This document shows positions 15,365 through 32,171 of a stretch of DNA of 64,000 nucleotides, one piece after another. Under the pieces are notes generated by a model that had not been told where the DNA came from, searched no databases, and worked only from the letters and a program-made list of their open reading frames with translations. The stretch is from Candidatus Doudnabacteria bacterium (GTDB taxonomy: Bacteria > Patescibacteriota > Doudnabacteria > UBA920): positions 297,036 to 361,035 of the forward strand of contig CAWINB010000001.1 of the NCBI GenBank assembly GCA_963837465.1. Reading direction: 5' to 3'. Each line of letters begins with the position of its first letter. The stretch's first letter is position 1. Made by a program: the position numbers and the translations under genes.

Positions 15365-16060
15365 TTATTTCAAAATTTTTATTATTTGTTTTTCGGATAT
15401 CGGCCCGGGACGTAAAATTTCAACCATCCGATCCTTTACCCGCAAAACCGTGGACGGTTTGTTTTTTGGCAATTTTCCCGCGTCAATAATTATGTCGGGT
15501 TTGAATTTTTTGTTCCCGAACTGGGTAACAATATCATTTGCGGAATAGCTATCGTAACCGCCGGATAAATGCAGCGATGGATTAGCGCTCGTTGCGGTTA
15601 TGGGCTGTTTTAAAAACTTTGCCAAGTCCATCGCAATTTGGTTATTTGGCATCCTCAGGCCGATCGAATTTGTACCGGCGGATAATTGTCGCGACGGCAC
15701 GCCCCGGCGTGCCGCTACCGGCAGCACTAACGTTAATGCCCCGGGCCAAAACTTTTTTGCCAGTTTACCGGCTGCCGAATTCCATCGCGCGATAGTTTTA
15801 GCATAAGCAACCGACGGCACGACAATATGCACAGGCTTGGTACTCTGTCGTTCCTTAATTTTATAAAGTTTTTTTATTGCCGCGGTGTTTGTGGCATCTG
15901 CCGCCAAGCCGTAACTGGTATCCGTAGGATAGGCCACAACCTTACCTTGTTTTAGCGCGGCCACGCAGGCATGGATAATTTTTTTATGGTATTTTTTTTC
16001 GTAATCAATAATAATCATTGGAGTAAGGGTGTGATTATGCCATCCCGGGATCCAAAACAT
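15365..16060 (-). CDS. tsaC: L-threonylcarbamoyladenylate synthase (YrdC/Sua5 domain)
   Basis: VVAYPTDTSYGLAADATN...KPVHIVVPS...; YrdC fold signature. Confidence 0.75.
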   Translation of the reverse strand: MFWIPGWHNHTLTPMIIIDYEKKYHKKIIHACVAALKQGKVVAYPTDTSYGLAADATNTAAIKKLYKIKERQSTKPVHIVVPSVAYAKTIARWNSAAGKLAKKFWPGALTLVLPVAARRGVPSRQLSAGTNSIGLRMPNNQIAMDLAKFLKQPITATSANPSLHLSGGYDSYSANDIVTQFGNKKFKPDIIIDAGKLPKNKPSTVLRVKDRMVEILRPGPISEKQIIKILK

Positions 16061-23559: not shown

Positions 23560-24594
23560 TTATTTCTTAATTTTGTCGCGCAAACCTTTTAAAATTTTAA
23601 TATCTATTTTGACTTTATCATGCTCCGTTTCCAAAATCAAGGGGAATGGGGATAACAATTGACCTTTGACAATTAACGATTGACAAAAGGTCATAATCGC
23701 GGCAAAACCTTTTTGGCCGATTTTTCCGTCGCCAATGTGGTCGTGTCGGTCTTTGCGGCCGCCCAAATCAATTTTGGAGTCGTTAATATGCGACATTTTT
23801 AGCCATTTTAGGCCGATTACTTTATCAAATTTTTTAAAGGTTTCGGCCACCGCCTCACCATCGCGAAGATCATAGCCGGATGAAAAGGCGTGCTGGGTGT
23901 CAAAACAAATGCCGCCAAAGGTTTTAAATTTTACCAAAGGTTCCATAAGGTCAGCCAAATCCTCAAAACTATGGCCAATGACTTCGCCGGCTCCGGCCGC
24001 TATTTCCAGCAAAAATGCCGCTGAACCCGTGTAGCCGCTTAAAACTTTTGCCAAACCTTTTTTGGTCTGCTCAAAAGCTATTTCGTGGCCGAGATCTTTT
24101 GCCGAACCTAAATGCGTCATTACGTATTTGGCGCCAATTAAGCTCGCGCGTTCCAATTCCTCGCGCACTACGGACGATGAACCGTGGAATATGCGCGGCT
24201 GGGCCGAGCCGAAATTTATAAAATAGGGGCAATGGACGACAAAAACTCCTCCAACCGCCTCCCCCGCTTCGCGGGTACCCCTCCTTTTCAAGGAGGAGAG
24301 GCTCCGCGGAGCTGCGGTCAACCCCTCCTTGTCAAGGAGGGGTGTCCCGCCTTTGCGGGACGGGGTGACTGGAGTTAATGGATAATATTTTTCCATTTCT
24401 CGTTTAAATCGCTGCACAATTTCCGGCGTCAGCTCCGGAGCTTTGCCGCCCATGGGCGGCCGGGTAAAAATCTGGAACGTCTCGCAACCTAAATCCGCGG
24501 CATTTTTCGGCGCGTTAAAAACCCCTCCCGCGGCACTGACGTGGCAACCTATTTTAAGCATGTGACGTTGAGTGTCAAGGGTCACCCTTGACAC
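23560..24594 (-). CDS. nfo: Endonuclease IV with an ~45-aa in-frame insertion encoded by a palindromic element
   Basis: LKIGCHVSAAGG...; TIM-barrel Nfo motifs; insert PLTPVTPSRKGGTPLLDKEGLTAAPRSLSSLKRRGTREAGEAVGG coincides with repeat family A copy 2. Confidence 0.8.
   Translation of the reverse strand: MSRVTLDTQRHMLKIGCHVSAAGGVFNAPKNAADLGCETFQIFTRPPMGGKAPELTPEIVQRFKREMEKYYPLTPVTPSRKGGTPLLDKEGLTAAPRSLSSLKRRGTREAGEAVGGVFVVHCPYFINFGSAQPRIFHGSSSVVREELERASLIGAKYVMTHLGSAKDLGHEIAFEQTKKGLAKVLSGYTGSAAFLLEIAAGAGEVIGHSFEDLADLMEPLVKFKTFGGICFDTQHAFSSGYDLRDGEAVAETFKKFDKVIGLKWLKMSHINDSKIDLGGRKDRHDHIGDGKIGQKGFAAIMTFCQSLIVKGQLLSPFPLILETEHDKVKIDIKILKGLRDKIKK
24262..24361. repeat. Palindromic mini-element family A, copy 2, inside nfo
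   Basis: cccgc-ttc-gcggg; ctcctt-ttca-aggagg; ag-GCTCCGCGGAGC; cccctccttg-tc-aaggagggg; gtcccgc-cttt-gcgggac. Confidence 0.75.
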
Positions 24595-26029: not shown

Positions 26030-27136
26030 TTAAATTATATTATTTTTTAAACTGGTTGGCACATTGATAAATTTTTTGCATTCACCCTTTTCCATGTACA
26101 CCAAATCCTCTATGCGTATGCCGCCTAAGTTTGGGAAGTAGACGCCGGGTTCTATGCTAAAAACCATGCCGTCTTTTAAAATATCTTTTGACCCGGGCGA
26201 TAAATTCGGCAGTTCGTGGATTTCCAGGCCGGTGCCGTGTCCCAGGGAATGGATAAAATACTTTTCCAGATGTTTTTCGGCAAGGATATTTACGGCGGTT
26301 TGATAAATGCCGTTTCCTGTAACATCACTGTCATTGCGGGGGAACGCACCCGACCGAAGCAATCTATTGTTTCTAAGATTAGATTGCTTCGGCCGCGCTC
26401 GCAATGACACACATTCATTATAAGCCTTCTCCACCTGATTATAAGCCATTTCCAGTTTTTTTGGAACTGTTTTTAAAAATACCGTACGGGTAAAATCACT
26501 GCAGTAATTTTTGTGCTTGAACCCGAAATCTAAAATAATAGACTCCCCGGCTTTTAATTTTTTACCCGACGGAATGTGATGGGGAACAGCCGCGTTGGCG
26601 CCGGCGGCCACAATGGCCGGAAAGGACACAGTCTCAGCGCCCATTTTTAACCCGCTGGATTCTATAAATTTTGCCAATTTTATTTCCGTCATCCCCGGCT
26701 TTTTTATTTCCTCGCGCGCCAGGCCAAAAACCCGCTCCACAATCTGCATGGATTTTTTAACCAGCGCGATTTCCCCGGACTCCTTGATTTGCCGCATAAC
26801 ATCCACGGCACTCCTAACCGGCTTAACCCTGACCCCTTTCCCCTTAGCCCTAATGTACTTGGCCTCGCCAAAAGTAAAATCGTAACCGACTTCCAAAGCC
26901 GAATCGGGCTTTAGGTATTGGCCGATGTTTTTTAAGCGGTCAACTTTGGCCACGCCGGTGATTTTTTCCAGGCCTGAGCCAAAAAAAACAACATCATTTT
27001 TCTTAACCAGCAAAAACCCGTCCGACCTTGAAAAATCCTCCCCTGTTAAGTAAAGGAGGTTTTCTTTTTTCTTGATTAAAAGGGGGTTAGTTAATTTTTC
27101 CCTCAACTTTCGGATTATAGCTTGATTTATAGCCAT
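26030..27136 (-). CDS. pepP: M24-family Xaa-Pro aminopeptidase with an in-frame palindromic-element insertion
   Basis: HGTGLEIHE..., pita-bread fold motifs; insert ARPKQSNLRNNRLLRSGAFPRNDSDVTG encoded by repeat family B copy 1. Confidence 0.8.
   Translation of the reverse strand: MAINQAIIRKLREKLTNPLLIKKKENLLYLTGEDFSRSDGFLLVKKNDVVFFGSGLEKITGVAKVDRLKNIGQYLKPDSALEVGYDFTFGEAKYIRAKGKGVRVKPVRSAVDVMRQIKESGEIALVKKSMQIVERVFGLAREEIKKPGMTEIKLAKFIESSGLKMGAETVSFPAIVAAGANAAVPHHIPSGKKLKAGESIILDFGFKHKNYCSDFTRTVFLKTVPKKLEMAYNQVEKAYNECVSLRARPKQSNLRNNRLLRSGAFPRNDSDVTGNGIYQTAVNILAEKHLEKYFIHSLGHGTGLEIHELPNLSPGSKDILKDGMVFSIEPGVYFPNLGGIRIEDLVYMEKGECKKFINVPTSLKNNII
26330..26408. repeat. Palindromic mini-element family B, copy 1, inside pepP
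   Basis: gtcattgcg ggggaacgcacccgaccgaagcaatct ... agattgcttcggccgcgct cgcaatgac (nested inverted repeats). Confidence 0.8.
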
Positions 27137-27256
27137 GACTTACGGCCTGGGTGTAAATTTGTTGTAAAAGTTCCGCGGCTTTATCAACCAAATCTCGCAA
27201 ACCCGCATCCGTTAAAGAATAAATATCCGTAGCTTTTGATTGTATTTGTTGTAATA
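27091..27256 (-). pseudogene. C-terminal fragment of a small gene split by the IS630 insertion
   Basis: Removing the IS and one TA restores the frame: ...FKGQLDI-LQQIQSKATDIYSLTDAGLRDLVDKAAELLQQIYTQAVSHGYKSSYNPKVEGKIN*. Confidence 0.55.
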
Positions 27257-27283
27257 TATACTCTCTTGCTAAATTAATTCCGA

Positions 27284-27859
27284 TTATATAATTTCAAAAT
27301 TAAGAGTTAATAGTGTTTTAAGCTCCGCTTTGTACTGAGATATGTTTTTAAAGAAATCATGTATGGCGATTGTAAACTCCTGAAAGGTTTTGTAGTACTT
27401 GTTGGCTTTAACTTTCTTTTTCATGAATTTCCAGAGGCGTTCAATCAAGTTTAAGTTGGGAGAATACGGCGGCAGGAACAACAGCTCAATGCCCAGATGT
27501 TTCGCTTCCTCGTTGGCCTGCTTGCTATGGTTGTACTTGGCGTTATCCAGGAAAATGTATATGGTTTTAGCTTTAGGATAATCTTTTCTGACTTCCCCTA
27601 AGAATATTGTCATCATTTGCCCGTCACAGTTATCTTCGGTCGTCAAAATAGTGGGTTTAAAAGCTACGGGGTTGATAGCGCCAATAACAGTTAATCTTTC
27701 CCGGCCGCTGTTTGAAGGAACCTTTTTAGTTTCACTTTTACCTTTAAGTTGCCAGCAGTAGCTATTGTCAGCATTATGGACCAGGTGAGCGGGGTCTAAA
27801 AACAGCACGATGCCTTTGTCTTTATCAGCTTTCTTTATGGTTTTAAAGATTAATTTCAC
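27284..27859 (-). CDS. IS630 transposase, DDE catalytic part (orfB)
   Basis: ...IFLDNAKYNHS...LPPYSPNLNLIERLW... (DD(34)E region). Confidence 0.85.
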   Translation of the reverse strand: MKLIFKTIKKADKDKGIVLFLDPAHLVHNADNSYCWQLKGKSETKKVPSNSGRERLTVIGAINPVAFKPTILTTEDNCDGQMMTIFLGEVRKDYPKAKTIYIFLDNAKYNHSKQANEEAKHLGIELLFLPPYSPNLNLIERLWKFMKKKVKANKYYKTFQEFTIAIHDFFKNISQYKAELKTLLTLNFEII

Positions 27860-27900
27860 AAAATCTTCCTGGGTCTCTCTGTCAGGCGCGCCGCTGGGAA

Positions 27901-28320
27901 CTATATGGGTTTTTTTGTAAGATAAATTGAGTTTTTTTTACAGCAGCGAAACAGCCAGCTTTGTTCCATCTCAATTGAATATTTTTCCTTAATCCAGGCC
28001 TGCATTTCAGCTAAAGTCGTAATAGTGTTGTCTTTTACATCTTGTTTGATTTGGTCTACATAATCATTAATTTTTGACTTCCGTTTATCTTTAAATTGTA
28101 GCTTGCGTAGTCCCTGTAGTTTCTCGGATTGATAGATTTTTATCCAGTCTGTAATCGTATCCACGCAGACATTAAACGCTTCCGCGATCTCCTGATGGTT
28201 TTGCCCCTGGTTCAGTAACTTTATGGCCTCCAGACGGCGCAGAACTCTGACATTTTTTTCCTGTTCCTGAAGTTGTTTAATCTTTTTAAGCTCACTGACG
28301 GACAGTTTTATTTGGTACAT
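27901..28320 (-). CDS. IS630 transposase, N-terminal HTH part (orfA); probably joined to orfB by a programmed frameshift
   Basis: HTH-like QGQNHQEIAEAFNVCVDTITDWIK; slippery T-runs at 27905-27950. Confidence 0.75.
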   Translation of the reverse strand: MYQIKLSVSELKKIKQLQEQEKNVRVLRRLEAIKLLNQGQNHQEIAEAFNVCVDTITDWIKIYQSEKLQGLRKLQFKDKRKSKINDYVDQIKQDVKDNTITTLAEMQAWIKEKYSIEMEQSWLFRCCKKNSIYLTKKPI

Positions 28321-28387
28321 TTTGTTAGGGTTAAGGCTCTTGGCCTTATTCTAACATTTCGGAATTAATTTAGCAAGAGAGTATATC

Positions 28388-30781: not shown

Positions 30782-32023
30782 TCAATTTTCCCCATATTCC
30801 CTGTAATTTTTTACCATGTCATCAAAATAGTCGTACTGTATAGCATCGCGGATTTTTTGCATTAGGTTTAGGTAAAAACGCAGGTTGTGCATTGTGGCCA
30901 GGCGAATGGCCAGGGGTTCGCCGCTGGCAAACAGGTGGCGGAGGTAACTTTTGGTGTGGTTGAGGCAAAGGTAGCAATTGCAGGTGTTATCTATGGTAGT
31001 AAAGTCTTCTTTGTATTTTTCAAGCCCGATGTCGATAGTTGAGTAACCTTCAACTAGTTGACGGCTATGGTCTTTATTAAAATTTTGATTTTCGCCATCG
31101 GGCGCGGCCCGCCGAAGCCTTGGCGAAGGCGGGCCGCCCTGCTCTCCCTTGTAACTAACATACAACTTCCCATGCCGTGCTTCCCTTGTCGGAATTACGC
31201 AGTCAAAAGTATCACACCCCCGGCTTACCGCCTGCACAATATCAAAAGGCGTACCCACTCCCAATAAATGCTTTGGCGCGGCTTCGGGCAGAAACGGCAC
31301 GGATGCTTCCACGGCCAGCATCATTTCCTTACGCGGCTCGCCCACAGCCACGCCGCCAATGGCAAAGGCCTCAAAGCCAAGCGAGACCATATCTGCCGCT
31401 GATTGCTGGCGCAAATCCGGGAAACTGGCGCCCTGGACAATCCCCCACAGCCTTTGTCCGGGGTTAATCGGGTCGCCATTGCGTAAAATATTTATAAATT
31501 CCTTTTGCGCGCGTTCTGCCCATCTTTTTGTAAGGGCTATGGATTCCTTGGAGCGTTCATGGGTAAAAGGATAGCCGGGAAAATCATCCAAAATCAGCGC
31601 TATATCACTGCCCAAATTGGCCTGGATTTGCACGGACTTTTCGGGTGACAAAACCTCACTGCGGCCGTCCAAATCGAACTGAAATAAAACTCCGGCTTCC
31701 ATAACTTTACGCATTTTAGCCAAACTAAAAACCTGGAATCCCCCGCTGTCCGTAAAAATCGGCCCTTTCCAGTTCATAAACTTATGCAGGCCCCCGGCTT
31801 TGTAAATGAGCGGGTCCCCCGGCCGCTGCCACAAATGGTAAGTATTGGCCAAAATAATTTCCGCTCCCCAAAACTTTAACTCCTCGCTCGTAACCGCCTT
31901 AACCGTCCCCTTAGTCCCGATAGCCAAAAACGCCGGCGTATTCACATCGCCATGCGCGGTATGAATTACCCCGTTGCGGGCTTTGGATTGTTCGTCTTTT
32001 TTTAGGATATCGAAGTAAGGCAT
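30782..32023 (-). CDS. tgt: Queuine tRNA-ribosyltransferase with an ~45-aa in-frame insertion
   Basis: Tgt motifs (GVIHTAHGDVNTPAF..., Zn-site CxCxxC...H: CNCYLCLNHTKSYLRH); insert encoded around the GC hairpin 31100-31139. Confidence 0.85.
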   Translation of the reverse strand: MPYFDILKKDEQSKARNGVIHTAHGDVNTPAFLAIGTKGTVKAVTSEELKFWGAEIILANTYHLWQRPGDPLIYKAGGLHKFMNWKGPIFTDSGGFQVFSLAKMRKVMEAGVLFQFDLDGRSEVLSPEKSVQIQANLGSDIALILDDFPGYPFTHERSKESIALTKRWAERAQKEFINILRNGDPINPGQRLWGIVQGASFPDLRQQSAADMVSLGFEAFAIGGVAVGEPRKEMMLAVEASVPFLPEAAPKHLLGVGTPFDIVQAVSRGCDTFDCVIPTREARHGKLYVSYKGEQGGPPSPRLRRAAPDGENQNFNKDHSRQLVEGYSTIDIGLEKYKEDFTTIDNTCNCYLCLNHTKSYLRHLFASGEPLAIRLATMHNLRFYLNLMQKIRDAIQYDYFDDMVKNYREYGEN

Positions 32024-32030
32024 AATGATT

Positions 32031-32101
32031 TGTCATTGCGAGGAGTGCGGCCGACGAAGCAATCTGTGATAAAAATATCGCTTCGGATGCACTCGCGATG
32101 A
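32031..32101. repeat. Palindromic mini-element family B, copy 2 (intergenic)
   Basis: gtcattgcg aggagtgcggccgacgaagcaatct ... atcgcttcggatgcact cgcgatgac. Confidence 0.8.
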
Positions 32102-32171
32102 CAGCTTAGGGTAGTATAAAGTAAAAAGTGGAAAGTAAAACAGCGTCCAAACCAGGGCGCTGTTTTACTAA

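What the first reader, a model, noticed from the sequence alone, without database searches (positions are those of the whole stretch)
26330..26408. Palindromic mini-element family B (GTCATTGCG...CGCAATGAC): one copy in-frame in pepP, one intergenic
Copies at 26330-26408, inside the M24 aminopeptidase adding ARPKQSNLRNNRLLRSGAFPRNDSDVTG, and at 32031-32101, between tgt and the next gene. They share about 9-bp terminal inverted repeats and an inner CGAAGCAATCT / AGATTGCTTCG hairpin. This is a second, distinct family from A showing the same in-frame tolerance.
Basis: seen in the sequence. Interest (0 to 1): 0.65.

Follow-up and report, generated by a model that had tools for sequence, protein, structure and literature searches.

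The report
CGTC-tagged palindromic repeat inside peptidase gene
An 81-bp hairpin-forming selfish DNA repeat, from a family found across bacterial phyla, sits in frame in a peptidase gene of a tiny-genome (CPR) bacterium and adds a floppy 27-residue surface loop. This is a known kind of repeat, but its DNA is conserved more strongly than the gene's own silent sites.

Summary
Copy 1 (26329-26409, 81 bp) lies in frame in an M24 peptidase. Copy 2 (32031-32103, partly decayed) ends 7 nt upstream of the tgt start codon. Neither is a classical MITE: there is no target-site duplication, and the neighbouring IS630-like element has unrelated ends.

Each copy is an inverted dimer of two REP-like units carrying a (C/T)GTC tag, an AT-starting stem (ATTGC/GCAAT) and a CCA-like tail. 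This matches the CGTC-tagged REP superfamily of Di Nocera et al. 2013, which includes Rickettsia RPE-4 and RPE-6. It is none of that paper's four families and is absent from Rfam.

Of 120 Doudnabacteria-type orthologues, 31 lack any insert at this loop and 89 carry palindromes of several families, often nested. AlphaFold2 models the encoded segment as a low-confidence coil between two helices.

One result was unexpected. Six orthologues share the insertion at the same nucleotide. Their element codons are far more conserved than silent sites elsewhere in the gene (5/8 versus 2/77 columns), and one reads the motif in another frame. So the DNA, not the peptide, is maintained. The mobilising enzyme remains unknown.

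The parts
26329..26409 (.). Copy 1 of the element. It is 81 bp, made of two inverted TGTC-tagged REP-like arms around a 13-nt loop, and is translated on the minus strand as part of the M24 peptidase (residues about 244-270).
   Evidence: It is a multiple of 3 and stop-free in the frame used.
26329..26340 (+). Left terminal repeat of copy 1 (TGTCATTGCGGG), consisting of the TGTC tag plus the start of the arm stem ATTGC.
   Evidence: The termini are invariant in six orthologous copies.
26398..26409 (+). Right terminal repeat of copy 1 (CTCGCAATGACA). It is the reverse complement of TGTCATTGCGAG.
   Evidence: helix 1: 10 of 11 pairs never vary.
26353..26392 (+). Inner stem-loop of copy 1: ACCGAAGCAATCTA (26353-26366), a 13-nt loop (26367-26379), and TAGATTGCTTCGG (26380-26392).
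   Evidence: I21.
26341..26352 (+). Variable core of the longer arm (GGGAACGCACCC, a weak GGG/CCC mini-hairpin). It corresponds to the modular mini-hairpin position of the family.
   Evidence: In orthologues this position has a covarying stem: CCCC/GGGG, CCCT/AGGG or GTCTT/AAGAC.
32031..32103 (.). Copy 2 of the element, 73 bp and partly decayed. It is intergenic, ends 7 nt upstream of the tgt ATG, and follows a TATACT box at 32113-32118 (read on the minus strand).
   Evidence: The relative L128 has no element at this place.
26030..27136 (-). Host gene: an M24 (Xaa-Pro) peptidase of 368 aa. It is intact, and the conserved D203, D214, H300, E329 and E343 are invariant across 34 orthologues.
30782..32023 (-). 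tgt (queuine tRNA-ribosyltransferase), the gene whose 5' leader holds copy 2.

Best explanation
The feature is a non-autonomous palindromic repeat. It is an inverted dimer (REPIN- or RPE-like) of two REP-like units.

**Unit anatomy.** Each unit is built as (C/T)GTC tag, then a 5-bp AT-starting stem ATTGC, then GAG, a variable mini-hairpin (often with a GNA loop), CGA(A), then GCAAT and a C(C/T)N tail. It is an undescribed family of the CGTC-tagged REP superfamily and occurs across bacterial phyla.

**What is shown.**
- One copy entered a permissive surface loop of the M24 peptidase in an ancestor of a Doudnabacteria subclade.
- It is 3n long and stop-free in that frame, so the gene stays intact. 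The 27 extra residues are modelled as a disordered loop between two helices.
- The other copy sits in the tgt leader, where a close relative has nothing.
- Insertion leaves no target duplication.
- The same loop in orthologues has been hit repeatedly by several palindrome families, often nested inside one another.
- The termini are held constant at the DNA level, independent of codon choice and reading frame. The mini-hairpin is kept by compensatory change.

**What is inferred.**
- Copies spread through a single-strand hairpin intermediate, handled in trans by an enzyme that recognises the tagged arm. By analogy with REP/RAYT and IS200/IS605, this would be an HUH-type enzyme.
- Resident hairpin loops are preferred landing sites, which together with selection creates the hot spot.
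- The enzyme for CGTC-type units is unknown.
For: **Family identity and distribution**
- 126 of 126 pattern matches in genome contigs carry the inner GCAATC/GATTGC motif. They come from Alpha-, Gamma- and Deltaproteobacteria, Bacteroidota, Cyanobacteria, Chloroflexota, Planctomycetota, Nitrospirota and Patescibacteria.
- 98 of 137 matches on viral contigs are true members.
- Copies on megaplasmids are never annotated.

**Match to the CGTC-tagged superfamily**
- The base before GTC is C in 82 and T in 34 of 125 copies.
- The tail is CCA in 116 of 228 arms, and there are 132 dimers against 20 unpaired arms.
- These are the features Di Nocera et al. list for CGTC REPs, including TGTC variants, HH dimers, intragenic copies and no transposase (PMC3733652).
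- Sister families show a covarying arm stem: ATTGC/GCAAT, ATTCT/AGAAT, ATCCT/AGGAT, ATCCC/GGGAT and ATTCC/GGAAT.
- Mini-hairpins with a stem of at least 4 bp occur in 23 of 87 long cores, against 5.5 expected.

**Insertion and tolerance**
- Orthologues without an insert have 18 codons at the site, and 89 of 120 carry inserts.
- Only a few loops of the protein accept inserts: after reference residue 243 in 80 of 120 and after residue 41 in 47 of 120.
- The AlphaFold2 model (pLDDT 84.4) has helix 226-243, then coil 244-272 with pLDDT of about 46-48, then helix 274-286.
- Length mod 3 is unbiased over all copies (49/44/33), and one of three frames ends in TGA. In-frame copies are therefore a selected subset.
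- Nested composites are seen in L127, L124 and L131.
- L128 provides an empty tgt leader.

**DNA-level maintenance**
- Six orthologues carry the element at the same nucleotide.
- At invariant columns with 4- or 6-fold-degenerate residues, codon pairs are identical in 84% of comparisons inside the element and 35% outside.
- All six codons are identical in 5 of 8 columns inside against 2 of 77 outside (Fisher p = 3e-5).
- The conserved codons are not preferred ones (CGA is 6% of Arg codons).
- L322 reads CGAAGCAATCT in another frame (RSN instead of KQS).
- Three of four mini-hairpin pairs change on both sides and stay paired.
Against: - No mobilising enzyme was identified. No Y1/RAYT-like ORF was found in the window or in L321-L324. 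The RAYT-like gene found in relatives (L140) is flanked by a GTAG-type hairpin, not a CGTC-type one.
- Recent movement in this genome is not shown. There are only two copies in 64 kb, and there are no close strains for comparison (P0001 is a singleton cluster).
- A purely selfish, neutral relic should decay, as copy 2 is doing. The pepP copy and its orthologues instead keep perfect termini past synonymous saturation. This needs selection, conversion or re-insertion.
- Single arms do not fold significantly under nearest-neighbour energy rules (z about 0).
- The two arms of a dimer do not co-vary with each other: 61 concordant against 59.7 expected.
- The insert-free comparators for pepP are only 60-65% identical, and about 5 native codons are missing next to the element. 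It is therefore not a clean empty-site comparison.
Confidence: 0.75

Rival explanations
1. The hairpin is a functional nucleic-acid module kept by selection at these loci. It could be an mRNA-stabilising or translation-modulating structure, or a binding or recombination site for a conserved protein. On this view it is not merely a tolerated parasite.
For: - Conservation is independent of codon choice and reading frame in six orthologues.
- The mini-hairpin shows compensatory changes.
- A CGTC-type dimer occupies the same position in the tgt leader in the window, L130 and L323, just after a -10-like box.
- The termini are conserved across phyla.
Against: - 31 of 120 orthologues have no insert, and others carry unrelated palindrome families at the same loop.
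- Insertion points differ by several codons.
- Relatives such as L128 and L131 have an empty tgt leader.
- Copies occur in every context and on both strands, and the two arms do not co-vary.
- There is no Rfam family.
- Copy 2 is decaying.
Confidence: 0.2
2. The six 'orthologous' pepP copies are not one old insertion. They result from repeated site-specific re-insertion, or from copy-correction (gene conversion) from other genomic copies, and this keeps the termini looking young.
For: - The nucleotide position is identical, yet arm subtypes differ: 12-nt versus 18-20-nt left arms, and the window's right arm has a different mini-hairpin.
- The termini are perfectly conserved while the loops are completely diverged.
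- Families are swapped at the same place in the tgt leader.
Against: - The arms of the six copies are clearly homologous: they share a TGCAKCCGA core and the same orientation.
- No conserved target sequence is seen beyond GARTGY.
- Within the window, copy 1 is no more similar to copy 2 than to orthologous copies in other genomes. For example AGCGCGGCCGAA in copy 1 compares with AGTGCATCCGAA in copy 2, so there is no sign of intragenomic homogenisation.
Confidence: 0.2
3. It is a classical MITE derived from, and mobilised by, a DDE transposase such as the IS630-like element 120 bp from pepP.
For: - It has terminal inverted repeats of 10-12 bp and is of small size.
- An IS630-like element (HTH + DDE_3 ORFs) lies at 27256-28386.
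Against: - There is no TA or any other target duplication in 125 copies.
- The 28-bp IS ends (ATATACTCTCTTGCTAAATTAATTCCGA) are unrelated to TGTCATTGCGAG.
- The family spans many phyla, which no single IS does.
Confidence: 0.03
4. The segment is ordinary lineage-specific coding sequence, or an assembly artefact, and is palindromic by chance.
For: None beyond the fact that the ORF is intact.
Against: - A second copy lies in non-coding DNA, and the pattern is found 0 times in 100 shuffles.
- The same sequence occurs in hundreds of independent assemblies.
Confidence: 0.01

Closest known systems
CGTC-tagged REP superfamily (Di Nocera, De Gregorio, Rocco 2013, BMC Genomics 14:522; PMC3733652)
   Same: - Unpaired terminal CGTC tag, often TGTC.
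- Stem starting with A-T pairs.
- Short tail fitting CCA.
- Units mostly paired as inverted dimers that can fold into one long hairpin, with heterodimers common.
- In-frame intragenic copies.
- Spread over several phyla with most in Alphaproteobacteria.
- No dedicated transposase known.

   Different: - It is none of the four published families. Their encoded peptides are VIPAKAGIQ/DSRLRGND, VMPGLDPGIH/DGRVKPGHD, VIPVLDTGI and VILDGRNIEF. This family gives SLR..KQS, VIASEAKQS or RHCE..EAI, ending in ..ARND or ..LAMT.
- The unit is not a plain stem of 8-9 bp with a 4-5-nt loop. It has a 5-bp stem, GAG/CGA(A) (possible tandem G.A pairs) and a modular mini-hairpin of 2-8 bp.
- Patescibacteria hosts were not covered in that study.
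Rickettsia palindromic elements (RPE; Ogata et al. 2000, 2002, recalled from my own knowledge; RPE-4 and RPE-6 are equated with CGTC-4 and CGTC-1 in PMC3733652)
   Same: Palindromic repeats inserted in frame in housekeeping genes of a small-genome bacterium. They are translated and located in surface-exposed regions without destroying the protein.
   Different: - The host lineage differs: CPR rather than Rickettsia.
- The sequence family differs.
- This element is about 80 bp, whereas RPE-1 is 100-150 bp.
- Here the same loop is hit by many families, and an orthologous copy shows DNA-level conservation beyond silent sites. To my knowledge this has not been reported for RPEs.
- Sequence similarity to RPE-1 to RPE-8 could not be tested.
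REPIN-RAYT systems (Bertels and Rainey 2011; RAYT of Nunvar et al. 2010)
   Same: - Two inverted REP units with a short spacer form a hairpin.
- Non-autonomous, with no target duplication.
- Long vertical persistence.
- This is the likely model for a single-strand, HUH-type mechanism.
   Different: - REPINs carry GTAG-type tags and flank a single-copy RAYT gene.
- Here the tag is CGTC/TGTC and no RAYT was found in the window.
- The RAYT-like gene of relatives (L140) is next to a GTAG-type hairpin.
Bacterial MITEs derived from DDE insertion sequences (for example Correia/NEMIS, Nezha, IS630-derived MITEs)
   Same: Small, with terminal inverted repeats, non-coding in origin, able to fold, and sometimes found inside genes.
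   Different: - No target-site duplication.
- No parent IS with matching ends.
- The distribution across phyla is unlike any IS-derived MITE.
Integron attC sites
   Same: Imperfect palindromes recognised as folded single strands, with conserved outer boxes and a variable terminal structure. This is a possible functional analogy for 'constant ends, modular interior'.
   Different: - The sequence is unrelated (attC R boxes are RYYYAAC/GTTRRRY).
- There are no cassettes and no integrase context.
- This is an analogy only.

Membership tests
CGTC-tagged REP superfamily (Di Nocera 2013) | Unpaired terminal tetranucleotide CGTC (TGTC or CCTC variants allowed) | tested here: met
   The base before GTC is C in 82 and T in 34 of 125 copies. 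Both window copies have TGTC at each end.
CGTC-tagged REP superfamily (Di Nocera 2013) | Stem begins with complementary A-T pairs at positions 1 and 2 | tested here: met
   The arm stem is ATTGC...GCAAT. Sister families ATTCT/AGAAT, ATCCT/AGGAT, ATCCC/GGGAT and ATTCC/GGAAT all start with AT.
CGTC-tagged REP superfamily (Di Nocera 2013) | Each unit is a stem-loop with a stem of 8-9 bp and a loop of 4-5 nt | tested here: inconclusive
   - Only 5 Watson-Crick pairs flank an 11-20-nt interior.
- Single arms fold no better than shuffles (z about 0), whereas a CGTC-1 unit gives z = -4.6.
- However, the 5-bp stem covaries between sister families.
- The interior contains GCGAAGC-type mini-hairpins and possible tandem G.A pairs, which the energy model does not score.
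CGTC-tagged REP superfamily (Di Nocera 2013) | Short unpaired tail, mostly CCA | tested here: met
   The tail is CCA in 116 of 228 arms, and the rest are CTC, CCC, CTT and similar. The window copies have CTA, CTG or, in the decayed arm, TAT.
CGTC-tagged REP superfamily (Di Nocera 2013) | Units mostly arranged as inverted dimers, with heterodimers frequent | tested here: met
   There are 132 dimers against 20 unpaired arms. Arm cores of 17/11 or 11/17 nt occur in 31 dimers and 11/11 in 15.
CGTC-tagged REP superfamily (Di Nocera 2013) | Belongs to one of the described families CGTC-1 to CGTC-4 | tested here: not met
   The peptides encoded by the four families (supplement 3 of PMC3733652) differ from those of this family. 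ATTGCGAG and related strings are absent from the paper and its supplements. Figure 2 of the paper could not be read.
CGTC-tagged REP superfamily (Di Nocera 2013) | No dedicated flanking transposase | not testable with these tools
   No Y1/RAYT-like ORF is present in the 64-kb window, but the rest of the 699,532-bp contig was not available.
Rickettsia palindromic elements (RPE) | Palindromic repeat inserted in frame in protein genes, translated, at the protein surface | tested here: met
   The ORF is intact with 27 extra codons. The segment is modelled as low-confidence coil between two helices. Translation itself was not tested.
Rickettsia palindromic elements (RPE) | Sequence similarity to RPE-1 to RPE-8 consensus sequences | not tested
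One uncultured Rickettsiales genome (L031) carries the ATTGC family.
REPIN-RAYT system | Two inverted REPs with a short spacer forming a hairpin | tested here: met
REPIN-RAYT system | GTAG-type tag and association with a single-copy RAYT gene flanked by the same REPs | tested here: not met
   The tag is CGTC/TGTC. No RAYT was found in the window. The RAYT-like gene in L140 is preceded by a GTAG-tagged hairpin, not by this family.
DDE-type MITE | Target-site duplication flanking the terminal inverted repeats | tested here: not met
   Direct repeats of 2-5 bp at the flanks occur at or below chance in 125 copies.
DDE-type MITE | Termini matching those of an autonomous IS in the genome | tested here: not met
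   The only IS in the window (IS630-like, 27256-28386) has unrelated 28-bp ends.
Any Rfam RNA family | Match to a curated covariance model | tested here: not met
   There is no hit at gathering score in the window. Only chance-level hits appear at E up to 5 on the element and on five loci from other phyla.

The most novel reading that the evidence does not exclude
CGTC-type palindromic units may not be decaying junk once inside genes. Their ends, (C/T)GTCATTGCGAG, are actively maintained at the DNA level over long vertical descent, independent of codon choice and reading frame. They can also be swapped for sister families at the same site, as seen in the pepP loop and the tgt leader. This would imply a still-unknown enzyme, present across bacterial phyla, that recognises the tagged arm and repairs, replaces or re-inserts these units. 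Because Doudnabacteria genomes hold well under a thousand genes, they could be the system in which the long-missing mobiliser of CGTC REPs and RPEs is identified.
Probability: 0.25. Interest if true: 0.75.

Novelty: new member of a known kind. Interest (0 to 1): 0.5.

Why it matters
- It extends the CGTC-tagged REP/RPE phenomenon (in-frame, translated palindromic repeats) to Candidate Phyla Radiation bacteria.
- It defines an apparently uncatalogued family that is among the most widespread short repeats in bacteria. The family is unannotated in RefSeq-type records and absent from Rfam.
- There are practical consequences. These inserts inflate and distort protein alignments: at a single loop, insert length ranges from 0 to about 70 aa. 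They also create spurious 'hypothetical' peptides (…ARND, …LAMT, …RSQ*) and may break metagenome contigs at the insertion site.
- Hot-spot loops mark naturally permissive insertion sites in enzymes.
- The DNA-level conservation of an old in-gene copy sharpens an open question, namely what propagates or maintains CGTC-type repeats. The tiny gene complement of the host makes phylogenetic profiling for the responsible enzyme realistic.

Tried and rejected
- **Literature by sequence string.** Searching full text for GTCATTGCGAG, CGAAGCAATCC and similar strings returned only unrelated primers. Word searches combining CPR/Patescibacteria with palindromic, MITE or intragenic terms found nothing specific.
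- **Rfam.** No match at gathering or permissive thresholds.
- **Target-site duplications.** None found.
- **Link to the adjacent IS630-like element.** Rejected because the ends are unrelated.
- **Folding of single arms.** Not significant.
- **Co-variation between the two arms of a dimer.** None: 61 concordant against 59.7 expected. The dimer hairpin as a whole is therefore not the conserved unit.
- **'Designed' openness in all reading frames.** Rejected. One frame always ends in TGA, and open frames are only modestly enriched over shuffles (2.9 versus 2.0 of 6).
- **RAYT/Y1 transposase search.** Using E. coli RayT as query, there was no hit in the window. The hits in L140 and L121 are associated with a GTAG-type hairpin.
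- **GenBank phages.** Only partial matches. The many IMG/VR hits may therefore be prophage or host DNA.
- **NJ tree of pepP.** It is star-like and weakly resolved. It was used only to show that insert states are interleaved.
- **Cluster look-up of P0001.** The Doudnabacteria assignment rests on names attached to homologues.
Full report
**Observation**

The sequence at 26330-26408 reads GTCATTGCG...CGCAATGAC, with a perfect inner hairpin CGAAGCAATCT / AGATTGCTTCG. Including the flanking T and A, which are conserved in both copies and both orientations, the element is 81 bp (26329-26409).

It lies inside ORF 26030..27136 on the minus strand. That ORF encodes a 368-aa protein matching Pfam Peptidase_M24 at E = 1.5e-53. 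There it is read as ...YNECV-SLRARPKQSNLRNNRLLRSGAFPRND-SDVTGNGIYQ....

The second copy lies at 32031-32103. It has one mismatch in the right terminus and two in the right inner arm. It ends 7 nt upstream of the tgt ATG and begins 68 nt after the stop codon of the preceding ORF.

The gapped pattern finds only these two places and none in 100 shuffles. Copy 1 folds with z about -6.3 to -6.9 as RNA or DNA, and copy 2 with z about -3.4 to -4.0. Mismatch-tolerant searches found no further copy in the window.

**The host and the insertion**

The closest pepP homologues carry names of Candidatus Doudnabacteria (Patescibacteria/CPR). The identical protein comes from a 699,532-bp contig.

In an alignment of 120 orthologues, the stretch between the invariant Tyr239 and Tyr278 is 18 codons in 31 proteins. 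In the other 89 it holds inserts of up to about 70 residues. At the DNA level these inserts are strong hairpins of several unrelated families, and some are nested inside one another:
- L127 has a single CGTC unit inside the loop of a family-B element.
- L124 and L131 have an outer hairpin enclosing three or four inner ones.
- GTAG-tagged dimers occur there too (L123, L139).

Insertion points differ by a few codons within the loop. Across the whole protein, inserts of 8 aa or more concentrate at two places, after reference residue 243 (80 of 120) and after residue 41 (47 of 120), with a few minor sites.

An AlphaFold2 model (mean pLDDT 84.4) places the element-encoded residues in a coil with pLDDT of about 46-48, between helix 226-243 and helix 274-286. 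The conserved D203, D214, H300, E329 and E343 are invariant across 34 orthologues.

Together this describes an insertion tolerated in a permissive surface loop of an intact enzyme.

**What the element is**

By my own estimate, about 270 chance matches would be expected in the whole collection. Yet all 126 matches retrieved carry the inner GCAATC/GATTGC motif.

The hosts include:
- Bradyrhizobium, Sphingomonadales, Micavibrio and Rickettsiales;
- Gamma- and Deltaproteobacteria and Nitrospirota;
- Bacteroidota (Pedobacter, Mucilaginibacter, Flavobacterium);
- Cyanobacteria, Chloroflexota and Planctomycetota;
- three Patescibacteria.

The same scan of IMG/VR also hit its limit, with 98 of 137 matches being true members. 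Megaplasmids carry the element without any annotation, while GenBank phages give only partial hits.

The features of the family are as follows.
- The base preceding GTC is C in 82 and T in 34 of 125 copies.
- There is no target-site duplication.
- The 3 nt after GCAAT are CCA in 116 of 228 arms.
- Arms occur as inverted pairs 132 times and alone 20 times.

These are the features by which Di Nocera, De Gregorio and Rocco (2013; PMC3733652) defined the CGTC-tagged REP superfamily:
- a CGTC tag, often TGTC;
- stems starting with AT;
- a CCA tail;
- mostly HH dimers, with frequent heterodimers;
- in-frame intragenic copies;
- no dedicated transposase.

In that paper, Rickettsia RPE-4 and RPE-6 and Neisseria dRS3 are listed as members. 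Their four families encode other peptides, and the ATTGCGAG string appears nowhere in the paper or its supplements. This is therefore a further family. Rfam has no model for it, and I found no paper printing its sequence.

**Anatomy of the unit**

Each arm reads, from the outside: (C/T)GTC, ATTGC, GAG, a variable core, CGA(A) (sometimes CGTG or CGCG), GCAAT, then C(C/T)N.
- Cores come in short forms (11 nt, AGCGNAGCGAA, containing a GCGNAGC mini-hairpin) and long forms (17-26 nt).
- Dimers that pair a long arm with a short arm are the commonest arrangement.
- Among 87 distinct long cores, 23 have a perfect stem of at least 4 bp, against 5.5 expected from shuffles. There are more than 20 different stem sequences, and the loops are mostly GAA, GCA or AAA.
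- Sister families keep the same frame but change the 5-bp stem on both sides: ATTCT/AGAAT, ATCCT/AGGAT, ATCCC/GGGAT and ATTCC/GGAAT. This argues that each arm folds on its own.
- Nearest-neighbour energies do not show that fold (z about 0, against -4.6 for a CGTC-1 unit).
- The two arms of a dimer do not co-vary with each other at the variable inner triplet: 61 concordant against 59.7 expected.

The unit of identity is therefore the arm, and the long hairpin is a consequence of pairing two arms.

**Rejected links**

The IS630-like element next to pepP (27256-28386, with HTH and DDE_3 ORFs) has perfect 28-bp ends unrelated to the repeat.

The element is not built to be open in every frame. One frame on each strand ends in TGA (...CAA TGA C). 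Open frames are only modestly enriched over shuffles, and length mod 3 over all copies is 49/44/33. In-frame genic copies are therefore what selection leaves behind.

**Age and conservation of the pepP copy**

I obtained DNA of five further orthologues that share the 'YNEC' context: L321, L322, L323, L324 and L127. All show the element at the same nucleotide position (xTG TCA TTG CGA ... CGC AAT GAC), in the same orientation and with homologous arm cores.

These proteins are on average 67% identical outside the element, and third codon positions are 44% identical. The comparison at invariant columns whose residue is 4- or 6-fold degenerate gives:

| Measure | Inside element | Outside element |
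|---|---|---|
| Codon pairs identical | 101 of 120 | 404 of 1155 |
| Columns with all six codons identical | 5 of 8 | 2 of 77 |

The column comparison gives Fisher p = 3e-5. The conserved codons (TCA, TTG, CGA, CGC, GAC) are not the preferred ones; CGA, for example, makes up 6% of Arg codons.

L322 carries small indels that shift the frame across the left arm. The DNA motif CGAAGCAATCT is kept there while the peptide changes from KQS to RSN. The loops between the arms are completely diverged.

The mini-hairpin stem of the right arm changes on both sides while staying paired: CCCC/GGGG, CCCT/AGGG and GTCTT/AAGAC. That is 3 of 4 pairs compensatory and 100% paired.

The nucleic acid, not the peptide, is therefore what is conserved. 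A neutral relic would not behave this way, and copy 2 shows that decay does occur. The cause could be selection on the DNA or RNA, correction from other copies, or repeated re-insertion. These cannot be separated here. Within the window, copy 1 is no closer to copy 2 than to orthologous copies elsewhere, which gives no support to intragenomic homogenisation.

**The intergenic copy**

The tgt leader behaves like the pepP loop.
- L130 and L323 have a sister CGTC dimer (ATCCT/ATTCT arms) at the same place, just after an extended -10-like box.
- L141, L122 and L133 have other palindromes there.
- L128 has none. Its sequence ...CGTTATACTACCCCC-ATGCCTTATTTTGAT aligns with the window's ...CTTTATACTACCCTAAGC-[73 bp]-AATCATT-ATGCCTTACTTCGAT.

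This is the best empty-site evidence available. No promoter was called by the consensus scan, so a regulatory effect is only a possibility.

**Mechanism**

Shown:
- non-autonomous palindromic dimers with constant tagged ends and no target duplication;
- recurrent, nested occupation of a few permissive sites;
- an intact host gene, with the segment modelled as a disordered loop.

Inferred:
- movement through a single-strand hairpin intermediate, handled in trans by an enzyme recognising the tagged arm, by analogy with REP/RAYT and IS200/IS605;
- a preference for landing in resident hairpin loops, which together with selection would explain the hot spots and the Russian-doll composites.

A RAYT-like gene does exist in relatives.
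- It is 154 aa and matches Pfam Y1_Tnp at 33 bits.
- It has the motifs HIH, WQPNYYEHVIR and EYIINNP.
- It lies between ProRS and pepP in L140, with a partial copy in L121.
- It is preceded by a GTAG-tagged hairpin.
- No RAYT-like ORF is found in the window.

The mobiliser of the CGTC-type family therefore remains unknown, as it was in 2013.

**Verdict**

The finding is a new family member of a known kind of repeat (CGTC-tagged REP / RPE-like), newly seen in CPR bacteria. Two aspects deserve follow-up: multi-family turnover at fixed permissive sites, and conservation of an old in-gene copy that is independent of codon choice.

Noticed in passing
L140 3543-4007 (and L121 2-199): A RAYT-like Y1 transposase gene lies between ProRS and pepP in two Doudnabacteria-like metagenome contigs and overlaps the pepP start by 4 nt. 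It is 154 aa, matches Pfam PF01797 at 33 bits, and has the motifs HIH, WQPNYYEHVIR and EYIINNP. A GTAG-tagged hairpin (GTAG-CTT-GCCCAT-TT-ATGGGC) sits directly upstream.
   Followed up: partly
window 24271-24360, 31061-31150, 6881-6970, 63535-63568: Other strong palindromes of different families lie inside long ORFs. ACCCCTCCTT..AAGGAGGGGT is in the AP_endonuc_2 gene. GGCCCGCCGAAGCCTTGGCGAAGGCGGGCC is in tgt and encodes ..GGPPSPRLRRAAPDG... TTCCGCCAGAGGCGGA-type hairpins are in ORF 6715-7203 and at 63535.
   Followed up: no
window 27256-28386: An IS630-like insertion sequence with perfect 28-bp terminal inverted repeats and two ORFs (HTH 27901-28320, DDE_3 27284-27859) is inserted between pepP and the ProRS side of the cluster. 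Relatives (L322, L323) lack it.
   Followed up: partly
window 58699-58820 (-): A full-length match to the Rfam LOOT RNA (RF03000), scoring 84.9 bits against a gathering score of 46.4.
   Followed up: no
pepP orthologues, after reference residue 41 (alignment): A second insertion hot spot in the N-terminal domain is occupied in 47 of 120 orthologues by diverse low-complexity or palindrome-like peptides.
   Followed up: no
L123 747-845, L139 435-539: GTAG-tagged REP dimers (GTAGGGCAGGCCCGTGGCCTGC...GCAGGCCGAGGGCCTGCCCTAC, peptide VGQARGL..AGRGPAL) occupy the same pepP loop in other lineages. Both REP superfamilies therefore use this site.
   Followed up: partly
L323 about 6700-6800 and L130 about 100-210: Upstream of tgt, a sister CGTC dimer follows an extended -10-like box (TGGTATAAT or TGATATAAT). 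In L323 the called tgt start codon is the ATG inside the element terminus (..CAGA ATG ACG..).
   Followed up: partly
L150, L153 (contig ends) and L152: The pepP matches stop at about residue 243-245, exactly at the insertion loop. In L150 and L153 this is within tens of bases of the contig end, which suggests these repeats break metagenome assemblies. L152 may carry a frame-disrupting insert.
   Followed up: no
window 15718 (-) and window 561-621: A GTAG-tagged 8-bp hairpin (GTAGCGGCACGCCGGGGCGTGCCG) lies at 15718. A perfect 30+30-nt palindrome (CTGATTTTACAGATACCTACAGATTCTAAA / complement) lies in non-coding DNA at 561-621.
   Followed up: no
window 26030-27136 versus L126 and L133: Next to the element, the window's pepP lacks about 5 native loop codons that are present in insert-free 'NEC' alleles (YNEC-IALISSQK-TTGDQAY). 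The insertion site has therefore also suffered a deletion or earlier turnover.
   Followed up: partly
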